NCBI GenBank assembly: GCA_951406725.2
Contig: OX597833.1
Coordinates: forward strand, 24,056,001 to 24,120,000
Length of the DNA: 64,000 nucleotides
Source of the DNA: Octopus vulgaris
Taxonomy: Eukaryota
Direction of reading: 5' to 3'
The first letter of the stretch is position 1. Each line of letters begins with the position of its first letter. Of the stretch, positions 9,616 through 14,365 are shown one piece after another. The translations under genes and the position numbers were made by a program. The notes beneath the pieces were generated by a model. The model saw only the letters and a program-made list of their open reading frames with translations, ran no database searches and was not told where the DNA came from.

Positions 9616-9617
<2 letters not shown>

Positions 9618-12600: not shown

Positions 12601-14365
12601 CCTCACCAAGTATTACCGCCATAAGCTTTCTCCTGTTGAGTGCGAATAGTCGCTGGAATCGCGCATAACGTTCTATCTTCGCGCGTCGGTTAACTGTAGA
12701 GCCATTTCGTTGTTTCGCTGACCCCTGCCCAGCTCCAGGGGTGGTCCGCTTTCTCCTTTCACGAGCGCTCACTCGGCGCGACGCCATGTGGCTCACCCAT
12801 TCCTCTACACGACTCACGAAATCCGACCAGTTCAGCTCCGAGCAGTCCTCACAGAGTGCCAGAAGGCAGTCTGCGAAGGATGATGCCCAGGTGGAGTGTC
12901 CTGGTGATGCAGCTTGACTGAACGGCTCCCGCCAGTCCGGGACTGCGGGCTGTGCCGTGCTCTTCTCGGTCGGTGCGCTTTGCCTGGAGGCGGTGGCTGG
13001 CGGGACTTTGTTACGAACTTTCCGCAGGTCGCAACGCTTATCGCTAATCTGTTTAGCCGTCTTACCTGGTAGCCAGGGGGCTACCCCCACATTGATCTTC
13101 TTACACCCCGCCTCCAGCAATTCCTTTTCTTTCGTTAGGAGGATCTCGACTTCTTCCTCCGTCCAGCAGCCTCGCGACGTCCGCCCTGAGGTACGCGCGA
13201 GTTGAGCACGCTTAGCCCTCTTGCGTGCTATTTCGTTTAGGCGGCTATCGATCCTGCGCCTATTCGCCTGCACCGGGTGTTTGTGCCTAATGTGCTGTGA
13301 CAGCCCCAAAGCCGTTCGGAAGGCTTGGCTGCACCATTCACATTTGTGGGCGAGCTGCTGAGATTCTAGTGCCGTTGGGGCTGCGTTCCCCTTGCACTTT
13401 CCGACGTGACACCTGACCGAATGGAGGTGGCCGCTCTCGTGGCCGCAGCGGCTGCATCTGTAGACAGGCTTTCGGGAATGCCTGTTGAGTACGTGGAGCC
13501 CCCATTCGAGAGGGCTCGAGAAGTGTCGAGGGCAGAGTGGGCACACTATGGACATCGACGCACATGGAATCTCCAGGGTGAACGCGTCAGCCGACGGGTG
13601 GCAGGCCACGCCGCTATCTAAGGCCACCCCCGTGGGCGGTCCGTCCTCTAAAGAGCGAGGGGGAACGGACAGGGGAAGGCCGAAGAGAGCGTCGTGGTCC
13701 GCCGCGATCTCCGGCGGGAGTTGTTCGCCACGAAGAACCAACGTGTGGGACGCGCATTCGAGAACAAAGCGGCCCGGTTTGTCCCTAGAGACTGTAAGCG
13801 ACTTGAAGCCACTTGTACTGTACACGATCGGGGGGTCTACCTGATTACGCCGAGGAGGGTTAGACCCTGTACCCACCTCAGGGAGAAGTAGCTTTTCGCC
13901 GCGGCGTGGGCACGTCCCATGCCGCGACTGGTACCGAGGCCCTTCCCGAGACCTCGGCACCGCCAGCTTCGCGGGGCCTGACACCCGTATGGCATTGAAG
14001 TTTACGTTGTACATCATAAGTTTTTCGACCGTTTCTCCGTGGCTCGAGCCAGATTTCCAGGCAGACTGCCAGTGCACCCCAACCCCAAACGCGCGAGGGG
14101 GCCGCCCCGAGGAGTGATCACTAGATGCACGTACGGTTTCGCCATACACACGTCAGGAGGAGGACCGGAGCCCCGCCCGTAGTAACCGCCCCAGAGTCTG
14201 CGGAGTCTCCCACCGTATCGGTTCGGTCAGGGAGATTCAGGCCGCTTTCGTTAGTCCACTGCGATGCAACCAATTCGGTATGGTTGGACCTACCGGTGTG
14301 TTCGACACCGACCGACCTAGCTCACATCACGGACGTAAGCTCTCTTGCCGCGACAAGGCAGCAAC
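9616..14365 (-). mobile_element. R2: Full-length R2 non-LTR retrotransposon (R2-A type) in 28S
   Basis: Flanked by ...GACTCTCTTAAGG and TAGCCAAATGCC..., the canonical R2 site; 4750 bp; single long ORF; 3'UTR about 706 nt. Confidence 0.97.
10322..14149 (-). CDS. R2 protein: 3 zinc fingers, Myb, reverse transcriptase, CCHC knuckle, restriction-like endonuclease
   Basis: CPLC..H..H, CSRC..H...C, CEWC..H..H; WTEEEVEILL..LPGKTAKQISDKR; FLDLAKAFDTVSH, GVRQGDALSPLLFN, YADD; CRKC..H...C, RHN, PDLV..IDV, KERKY. Track start is GTG; first ATG at 14017 (1231 aa). Confidence 0.97.
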   Translation of the reverse strand: MYGETVRASSDHSSGRPPRAFGVGVHWQSAWKSGSSHGETVEKLMMYNVNFNAIRVSGPAKLAVPRSREGPRYQSRHGTCPRRGEKLLLPEVGTGSNPPRRNQVDPPIVYSTSGFKSLTVSRDKPGRFVLECASHTLVLRGEQLPPEIAADHDALFGLPLSVPPRSLEDGPPTGVALDSGVACHPSADAFTLEIPCASMSIVCPLCPRHFSSPLEWGLHVLNRHSRKPVYRCSRCGHESGHLHSVRCHVGKCKGNAAPTALESQQLAHKCEWCSQAFRTALGLSQHIRHKHPVQANRRRIDSRLNEIARKRAKRAQLARTSGRTSRGCWTEEEVEILLTKEKELLEAGCKKINVGVAPWLPGKTAKQISDKRCDLRKVRNKVPPATASRQSAPTEKSTAQPAVPDWREPFSQAASPGHSTWASSFADCLLALCEDCSELNWSDFVSRVEEWVSHMASRRVSARERRKRTTPGAGQGSAKQRNGSTVNRRAKIERYARFQRLFALNRRKLMAVILGEDLGGECPVPMSDIEALYRDRLSRPGPEVDLGAYPAASAVDNTSILCPFTVEELKIARRRMDPASAAGPDGLTAREVRAVDPAVLANLFNCLLLTGRVPRILLRGRSILLRKKAGDPNDLSNWRPLTICSAVYRLYTKVLAARMLQATPLNPSQRGFIKADGCGENNFLLRRLLDHARGATHARPKLPGLEIAFLDLAKAFDTVSHSLIFAGMRRLGYDNHLIGLVGQLYEGSTTTFTIGTECSTPIEIRRGVRQGDALSPLLFNIATDPLLGALPADMGLQICGAVMAGLAYADDMVLVSGSSRGLQSLLDQCSEFYHAVGLSINVSKCAWFSIRNWGKSYLVNVTSPPELDGCPLPRVEPDESVPYLGIKALPWSTQNRETSVETVSRCIDEICRASLKPRQKFMMLQQYYLPSLFYALTQAIPSKVALDELDMAIRGGARRMLHLPDSTSKSFLYSARRDGGLSLCQLARAIPKNVIRRNQRLLNSGYDAVRTIAQAARLATKNAELAALYDLPSVRNDGDLYAPDLRATHAKRWKSQPVQGVCAAAFKSDQIGNSWMTRPGGISEECYLGLLKMRTNTFPTRECLTRGGRGDSTCRKCKSASETISHISGQCSRLKTQRLARHNRICRLVAREAERYGWMTGWEPVYRVSGSRLIPDLVFRSSSEVVVIDVTVRYEQDTALRDAAHEKERKYRPLIPLLQTELGLPVRVFGCPIGACGAWCAEAEEALAALRIMDKRFMRLLSRTAMLCTLNMLRS

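What the first reader, a model, noticed from the sequence alone, without database searches (positions are those of the whole stretch)
9616..14365. Intact full-length three-zinc-finger R2 retrotransposon in a probable cephalopod 28S gene
Seen: precise insertion at TTAAGG^TAGCCA; an uninterrupted 1275-codon ORF with CCHH-CCHC-CCHH fingers, Myb, RT (YADD), CCHC and PD..D..K endonuclease motifs all intact; both UTRs present. Known: three fingers define R2 clade A, the clade whose avian members are used for RNA-templated transgene insertion into rDNA, and this target is conserved across animals. Inferred: a potentially active, little-characterised mollusc R2 supplying protein, 5' ribozyme and 3' template module together. 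I cannot verify that it is absent from databases.
Basis: partly seen in the sequence, partly recalled or inferred. Interest (0 to 1): 0.8.

Follow-up and report, generated by a model that had tools for sequence, protein, structure and literature searches.

The report
Already catalogued octopus R2 retrotransposon
This is an intact copy of R2, a well-known jumping gene that inserts at one fixed site in ribosomal DNA; it is already listed in a 2026 catalogue, and the only possibly new detail is an unusual predicted self-cutting RNA at its front end.

Summary
The anatomy is confirmed. A 4,750-bp element sits at the canonical 28S site. It has a 1,276-codon open frame with CCHH-CCHC-CCHH fingers, Myb, RT, zinc knuckle and PD..D..K endonuclease, and all catalytic residues are intact. 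The model folds onto lineage-A R2 structures (TM 0.75-0.81).

Table S2 of PMC13188248 lists R2-1_OVu (Octopus vulgaris) with the same lengths (1,276 aa, 4,750 nt, 709-nt 3'UTR), and the visible first 400 characters of each cell match by eye. It was not among the nine new proteins assayed there, so activity is untested.

What remains is the 5' ribozyme, which that paper's main text does not analyse. It fits an HDV-like fold that borrows 28S bases and would cut at -11. The same P1' strand is seen in six of nine mollusc rows, with compensatory changes. About 47 extra nucleotides lie between P1 and P4. If P1.1 forms after this insert, the topology would be new (about 30%). The scan's notes hold no look-alike of this protein.

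The parts
9616..14365 (-). Full-length R2 element, 4,750 bp, matching published R2-1_OVu
   Evidence: Table S2 row
8095..17735 (-). Host 28S rRNA gene, interrupted at the canonical R2 site
   Evidence: Rfam RF02543; junctions
14239..14376 (-). Predicted HDV-like ribozyme, 28S -11 to element +127: P1 14376-14370/14346-14340, P2 14367-14360/14246-14239, P3 14359-14357/14349-14347, P4 14290-14285/14258-14253, candidate catalytic C at 14250
   Evidence: mollusc rows read by eye; no Rfam ribozyme match; cleavage not shown
14293..14339 (-). About 47 nt between the P1' strand and the two bases before P4; two hairpins (pair probabilities 0.89-0.99); the first recurs in four mollusc lineages
   Evidence: by eye
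14153..14365 (-). 5' leader ahead of the open frame (213 nt)
10322..14152 (-). Single ORF, 1,276 sense codons plus stop (P0001); first AUG at 14017
13478..13543 (-). ZnF3, CCHH (aa 204-225)
   Evidence: aligns to 9nl2 and 9dou
13394..13456 (-). ZnF2, CCHC (aa 233-253)
13277..13342 (-). ZnF1, CCHH (aa 271-292)
13019..13174 (-). Myb domain (about aa 327-378)
   Evidence: alignment to R2 structures; three helices in the model
11489..12262 (-). Reverse transcriptase (Pfam RVT_1, aa 631-888); YADD at 11717-11728
   Evidence: (E 5e-27)
10757..10810 (-). CCHC zinc knuckle (aa 1115-1132)
10517..10729 (-). Restriction-like endonuclease core: RHN, E1164, PD1177, D1190, K1208, Y1212
9616..10321 (-). 3'UTR, 706 nt, no poly(A). 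It ends in a small hairpin (9663-9676), an A-rich linker, a purine run like the vertebrate hinge and a terminal stem (9628-9649)
   Evidence: the whole 289-nt fold is no better than shuffles (z 0.0); hairpin and purine run recur in the Eledone row by eye

Best explanation
An intact lineage-A R2 non-LTR retrotransposon, the published R2-1_OVu. SHOWN here: precise position in 28S, intact frame and catalytic residues, lineage-A fold, match to the catalogued entry. INFERRED from R2 biology: RNA polymerase I co-transcribes it with rRNA; a 5' HDV-like ribozyme, whose P1 pairs element bases with upstream 28S bases, frees the RNA about 11 nt upstream of the junction; the protein binds the 3'UTR end, its fingers and Myb read the 28S target, the endonuclease nicks the bottom strand, and read-through 28S bases pair with the nicked primer (no poly(A) needed) to start target-primed reverse transcription; the 28S leader left on the RNA gives a clean 5' junction. 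Whether this copy is active now is not shown (my odds about 65% for nicking plus TPRT in vitro).
For: Same lengths and visible text as R2-1_OVu. Best solved relatives by sequence: 9nl2 528 bits, 9dou 514, Bombyx 8gh6 309. Model pLDDT 88.5, pTM 0.79; Foldseek TM 0.81, 0.78, 0.75 to 9nl3, 9nl2, 9dou against 0.68 to 8gh6. The query has the majority residue at all 15 catalytic or structural positions checked, and agrees at 87 of 95 columns conserved in at least 85% of 109 homologues. In an unrooted tree of 109 rows it lies in a 52-row set (support 99) with P0054, which matches the 9nl2 protein end to end. Upstream cleavage with uniform junctions: PMC3774820. 3' homology needed by R2Tg: PMC12222951. 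The turtle 3'UTR also lacks poly(A).
Against: Only the first 400 characters of each table cell were visible, so identity beyond them rests on equal lengths. Eight conserved columns differ, among them A774 for the P of QGDP (105 of 109 homologues) and C1237 for R. The query has a long branch (1.12), and the tree has no named lineage-D row and no root. Three of nine newly tested R2 proteins were inactive in cells. Rfam finds no ribozyme family at the 5' end. The copy lies in the last full rDNA unit before a scrambled 28S-like stretch and an assembly gap, where units may be silent.
Confidence: 0.93

Rival explanations
1. A recently dead R2: the frame is open, but the protein or the ribozyme no longer works, and the copy persists by rDNA turnover.
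For: Eight departures at conserved columns; L3 starts UUG, not the usual UCC; a stable hairpin hides the bases right after P1'; the copy lies at an array edge. An intact ORF with a non-cleaving ribozyme is known in horseshoe crab.
Against: No stop in 3.8 kb; catalytic residues intact; ribozyme stems show compensatory changes across octopods and a scallop (by eye); a near-identical sister element in O. sinensis.
Confidence: 0.25
2. Ribozyme reading A, canonical connectivity: P1.1 forms right after P1' as G22-C38 over a U21.U39 pair, and the following 90 nt or so are an unusually branched P4 region.
For: The C and U after P1' are invariant in 5 of 5 rows with L3 UUG, and the mussel row has the reverse pair C22-G38. 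A Watson-Crick pair over U:U is a solved P1.1 form (PMC13635239). P4 is highly variable or absent in R2 ribozymes. A relaxed core descriptor gives one hit, and 0 of 5,000 shuffles match.
Against: Those two bases are paired in a hairpin with probability 0.99, and its 3' strand is conserved in all four lineages; no stem encloses the region.
Confidence: 0.45
3. Ribozyme reading B, new connectivity: L3 U21 and G22 pair with the (C/U)A just 5' of the stem that precedes J4/2, so a 30-110 nt structured domain is inserted between P1' and P1.1.
For: The descriptor finds this fold with a 47-nt insert; 0 of 5,000 shuffles and 0 of 23 tiles of the element match. By eye the two bases are UA in the window, O. 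sinensis and the scallop, and CA in O. rubescens and Eledone, always able to pair with UG; P4 is then followed by C-(G/U)-A-A as in HDV. All non-pseudoknot helices are the thermodynamically favoured ones.
Against: The descriptor was written after I had seen the sequence, so the shuffle count overstates significance. The bases lie in a motif shared by descent. In solved HDV folds P1, P1.1 and P4 stack coaxially. Only four independent lineages, compared by eye and not by an alignment test.
Confidence: 0.33
4. Cleavage at -13 (the Nasonia/Tribolium B site) through a 9-bp P1 with an A.C mismatch, or at -10 through a 6-bp P1.
For: -13 is a known site and starts with G.U; duplex energy -8.5 against -7.4 kcal/mol for -11. 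The base needed for -11 can also close the first hairpin, which would leave -10.
Against: P1 is typically 6-7 bp. The mussel row fixes a 7-nt P1' followed by GG and carries an internal 28S duplicate that starts at about -11/-12, not -13 (by eye). A C at position 1 is active in L1Tc.
Confidence: 0.2
5. Assembly artefact or contaminant.
For: The window has gaps at 30750 and 33954 and a scrambled second 28S-like stretch.
Against: Base-exact junctions; half or more of the sampled words in 12 runs of 7 other studies; relatives at the same site in other octopods.
Confidence: 0.01

Closest known systems
R2-1_OVu, Octopus vulgaris (PMC13188248, Table S2; also R2-1_OSi, R2-1_ORu, R2-1_ECi)
   Same: Equal lengths of ORF (1,276), element (4,750) and 3'UTR (709 with stop); the visible first 400 characters of ORF, element and 3'UTR match by eye; same target site.
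   Different: None seen. The rest of each cell was cut from view. The entry was not assayed and is not named in the main text.
Vertebrate lineage-A R2 proteins PlaMe (9nl2) and TaGu/R2Tg (9nl3, 9dou)
   Same: Three fingers, Myb, RT, knuckle and RLE in the same order; TM 0.75-0.81; no poly(A); a terminal 3' stem.
   Different: About 30% identity. Bird and turtle 5' ends show the canonical UCC-type L3 with a P1' for -28 (by eye), the octopus one does not. Longer 3'UTR; its pseudoknot is not demonstrated.
R2 HDV-like ribozymes that cut upstream in 28S (PMC3774820)
   Same: P1 5' strand supplied by 28S; P3-L3-P1' order; J4/2 C followed by A; precise 5' junction.
   Different: Predicted site -11 with a C1-G pair is not among the sites named in the text (0, -9, -13, -25, -27, -28, -29, -36; Fig. 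S2 not seen). J1/4 there is 0-2 nt; here about 47 nt lie between P1' and the stem before J4/2.
L1Tc ribozyme (PMC3185411); C. briggsae and Ackermannviridae HDV-like ribozymes (PMC13635239)
   Same: Cleavage at a C1 (L1Tc); P1.1 of one Watson-Crick pair, or one pair over U:U or C:U.
   Different: Compact folds with no large domain after P1'; not in rDNA.

Membership tests
R2 non-LTR retrotransposon | Insertion at the conserved 28S site AAGG^TAGC | tested here: met
R2 non-LTR retrotransposon | Single ORF with ZnF, Myb, RT, CCHC knuckle and PD-(D/E)xK endonuclease | tested here: met
R2 non-LTR retrotransposon | Myb domain (separates R2 from Utopia in PMC13188248) | tested here: met
   definition read
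R2 non-LTR retrotransposon | Site-specific nicking and TPRT activity | not testable with these tools
   needs an assay; not assayed in PMC13188248
R2 lineage A | CCHH-CCHC-CCHH fingers | tested here: met
   necessary but not sufficient
R2 lineage A | RT-to-C-terminus sequence groups with lineage A | tested here: met
   52-row set with P0054/9nl2, support 99, unrooted FastTree; 528 against 309 bits
R2 lineage A | Co-folded ZnF3:2 unit | tested here: inconclusive
   the whole model matches lineage-A structures, finger region pLDDT 78-87; the ZnF3:2 interface was not inspected
R2 lineage A (vertebrate) | 3'UTR pseudoknot-hinge-stem | tested here: inconclusive
   terminal stem and hinge-like purine run present (by eye); no convincing second pseudoknot stem; fold z 0.0; feature read
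HDV-like ribozyme | P1, P2, P3, L3 (U..CG) and J4/2 C in nested order | tested here: met
   post-hoc descriptor, supported by eye by compensatory changes in P2 and P3
HDV-like ribozyme | Two-pair P1.1 directly after P1' with P4 within 0-2 nt | tested here: not met
   0 hits with an insert of up to 2 nt
HDV-like ribozyme | Match to a curated Rfam ribozyme family | tested here: not met
   E up to 10, window 14100-14400
HDV-like ribozyme | Self-cleavage that depends on the J4/2 C | not testable with these tools
   needs co-transcriptional cleavage with a C-to-U control

The most novel reading that the evidence does not exclude
A mollusc-wide R2 sub-lineage (octopods and scallop) carries an active HDV-like ribozyme of undescribed connectivity. 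A conserved 30-110 nt structured domain is inserted between P1' and P1.1, P1.1 is rewritten as U-A plus G-Y, and the cut falls at 28S -11 on a C-G pair. That would show that the P1/P1.1/P4 stack tolerates a branch at the active site, and that standard descriptors miss a class of ribozymes.
Probability: 0.28. Interest if true: 0.6.

Novelty: already known. Interest (0 to 1): 0.22.

Why it matters
As an element it adds nothing to the catalogue. It is still a divergent (about 30% identity to the bird and turtle proteins), untested lineage-A candidate for RNA-templated insertion, and no mollusc R2 was in the assay panel of PMC13188248. The one point a specialist might not know is the 5' ribozyme: a predicted -11 site and an enlarged domain after P1', with covariation across molluscs. 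One cheap in vitro cleavage experiment would test it.

Tried and rejected
Rfam: no ribozyme or R2 family in 14100-14400 or in the 3'UTR.
Canonical compact HDV descriptor: 0 hits.
A -28 P1: only two weak 6-mers in the first 400 nt, neither placed after a P3/L3.
Plain MFE of the junction: z -1.44, 19 of 200 shuffles as good; it cannot model pseudoknots. 3' 289 nt: z 0.0.
N-terminal extension as a separate conserved domain: no Atlas hit and no match better than E 0.15 among 193 fetched proteins; only a by-eye likeness to two octopod rows.
No second copy or fragment of the element and no empty target site elsewhere in the window.
Sequencing runs: no RNA holder listed. Inserted fraction, copy number, truncation ladders and junction uniformity were not measured.
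No whole genome is held.
The protein databases gave no close full-length relative (best 34-37%; one fragmentary 49% hit), which wrongly suggested novelty until the supplement was searched.
The first tree run did not finish and was replaced by FastTree (P0046 dropped as fragmentary, 109 of 110 rows kept).
Earlier scan notes: nothing by place or sequence; two partial word matches on other genomes, not used.

Full report
OBSERVATION. The window holds one full rDNA unit on the - strand: 18S 19563-22212, 5.8S 18210-18368, 28S 8095-17735. The 28S is interrupted by 4,750 bp (9616-14365) between ...CTCTTAAGG and TAGCCAAATG... with no flank base lost. One frame is open from 14152 to 10325: 1,276 codons, first AUG at codon 46. 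The longest frame in 300 shuffles was 417 codons. Pfam gives RVT_1 at aa 631-888. There is no poly(A) tail.

WHAT IT IS. By sequence the closest solved proteins are R2s: 9nl2 (528 bits), 9dou (514), 9nl3 (513), then Bombyx 8gh6 (309). A model of aa 196-1276 from a 55-sequence alignment has pLDDT 88.5 and pTM 0.79; Foldseek ranks 9nl3, 9nl2 and 9dou first (TM 0.81, 0.78, 0.75), then 8gh6 (0.68). In an unrooted FastTree of 109 of 110 aligned rows the query lies in a 52-row set, support 99, that holds P0054, which matches the 9nl2 chain end to end; no named lineage-D row was in the tree. The query has the majority residue at all 15 catalytic or structural positions checked and at 87 of 95 columns conserved in at least 85% of the homologues. 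The eight exceptions are R627, M729, R770, A774, Q798, S983, Y1007 and C1237.

IT IS ALREADY CATALOGUED. Protein searches gave no close full-length relative, and full-text searches for R2 with cephalopod or octopus gave no relevant title (listings only). Supplementary Table S2 of PMC13188248 (Genome Biol 2026), however, lists R2-1_OVu from Octopus vulgaris with an ORF cell of 1,276 characters, an element cell of 4,750 and a 3'UTR cell of 709. These are the values computed for the window. The first 400 characters of each cell, all that was visible, match the window by eye. Five more cephalopod entries are listed, among them a near-identical O. sinensis element. The paper assayed nine new proteins, all vertebrate; three were inactive in cells. 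Its main text does not name this element and mentions ribozymes only in the references. It also states that finger number does not define lineage.

SPREAD. Of 24 listed runs, 20 hold the stretch or part of it and 16 hold half or more of the sampled words. Without the study that may be the source, 12 runs of 7 studies and 5 organism labels remain. The 28S flanks are under a tenth of the query, so these shares include element sequence.

MECHANISM. Inferred from R2 biology: co-transcription with rRNA, release by a 5' HDV-like ribozyme, then nicking and target-primed reverse transcription. R2Tg needs downstream 28S bases to pair with the primer (PMC12222951), and the turtle 3'UTR ends in a stem without poly(A), so the missing tail is ordinary for lineage A. 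The octopus 3' end has a small hairpin, an A-rich linker, a purine run and a terminal stem; hairpin and purine run recur in the Eledone row (by eye). The vertebrate pseudoknot (PMC12180492) is not demonstrated here.

THE 5' RIBOZYME, THE ONLY RESIDUAL NOVELTY. Rfam finds nothing, and a compact descriptor gives no hit. Allowing an insert after P1' gives one fold: P1 = 28S -11..-5 with element +20..+26 (7 Watson-Crick pairs), P2 -2..+6 with +120..+127 (5 WC, 3 GU), P3 +7..+9 with +17..+19, L3 +10..+16, P4 +76..+81 with +108..+113, and C+116 in J4/2. None of 5,000 dinucleotide shuffles and none of 23 tiles of the element matched; a relaxed core also gave 0 of 5,000. Both descriptors were written after I had seen the sequence, so these counts overstate significance.

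The better evidence is comparative, read by eye from Table S2. The 10-mer around P1' occurs 5 times in the visible text of the file, in 5 of the 9 mollusc rows (two Octopus sister species, O. rubescens, Eledone, a scallop). A sixth row, a mussel, has the same 7-nt P1' after a canonical L3 and before GG, which fixes the register. P3 changes from GCC/GGC to CCC/GGG in Eledone; P2 differs at most positions in the scallop and still forms 8 Watson-Crick pairs. The Eledone junction keeps 28S to -5 and differs after it, as P1 would require. The other three mollusc rows (Sepiola, Sepia, Arion) do not show the motif.

The cut is thus predicted at -11, or at -10 or -13 under the rival pairings. The text of PMC3774820 names sites 0, -9, -13, -25, -27, -28, -29 and -36 and a J1/4 of 0-2 nt; its Fig. 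S2 was not visible and could hold a -11 case. A C at position 1 is active in L1Tc. P1.1 has two readings. (A) G-C over U.U right after P1', which has a solved precedent but competes with a hairpin of pair probability 0.99. (B) U-A plus G-Y with the two bases before P4, which pair in all five rows but need a domain inserted between P1' and P1.1. Searches listed no paper on an octopus ribozyme or on such an insert; the library lacks most subscription papers, so this is weak evidence of absence. I put A at 0.45 and B at 0.33, with the rest on other pairings or decay.

PAPERS SEEN. PMC13188248: passages, the whole Results section, and search hits and part 29 of 61 of supplementary file 7 (cells cut at 400 characters); figures and the other 15 files not read, and they may bear on the tree position of this element. 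PMC3774820: abstract and parts 2-6 of 7; figures and supplements not seen. PMC5035012, PMC3185411, PMC4035085, PMC4908430, PMC12180492, PMC12222951 and PMC13635239: passages only. HDV numbering (positions 1, 21, 22, 37-39) is partly recalled.

VERDICT. A real, intact, ordinary lineage-A R2 that is already in a published catalogue. Interest 0.22, carried by an untested protein and a testable ribozyme variant.

Noticed in passing
window 29471-30749: After the intergenic spacer repeats, a GC-rich stretch with only short matches to the 28S of the first unit (140 nt at 97%, 133 nt at 81% inverted, 110 nt at 75% inverted) runs into a 100-N gap: a scrambled rDNA fragment or an assembly join at the array edge.
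   Followed up: partly
window 30850-32239 +: Broken Penelope-like element: RT-like C-terminal part and a weak GIY-YIG match (E 0.016) in a 372-codon frame. The Penelope label is my recall.
   Followed up: partly
window 34625-37298 +: LINE with an APE endonuclease (E 6e-13) and an RT (E 1e-30) in two overlapping frames, so frameshifted.
   Followed up: partly
window 1042-7373 and 24327-29471: Intergenic spacer built from 190-bp and 141-bp tandem repeats; the 141-bp array has 10.4 copies in one spacer and 3.4 and 2.8 in the next.
   Followed up: no
window 18534-19490: ITS1 holds a 363-bp unit repeated 2.6 times at 97% identity; the 18S match is long, 2,650 nt.
   Followed up: no
window 14268-14295 -: The motif at the start of P4 and its inner hairpin (ACCA...UGGU) is nearly the same in octopus and scallop by eye, more than pairing alone would need; possibly a protein- or ribosome-binding element.
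   Followed up: partly
window 13553-13870 - (aa 95-200): The N-terminal extension has a short beta-rich-looking stretch shared by eye with the O. rubescens and Eledone rows; no database support.
   Followed up: partly
window 9616-9618: The element ends in GG just before TAGCCA, so the 3' junction mimics the GG^TAGC of the target; a 2-bp duplication or chance, not resolved.
   Followed up: no
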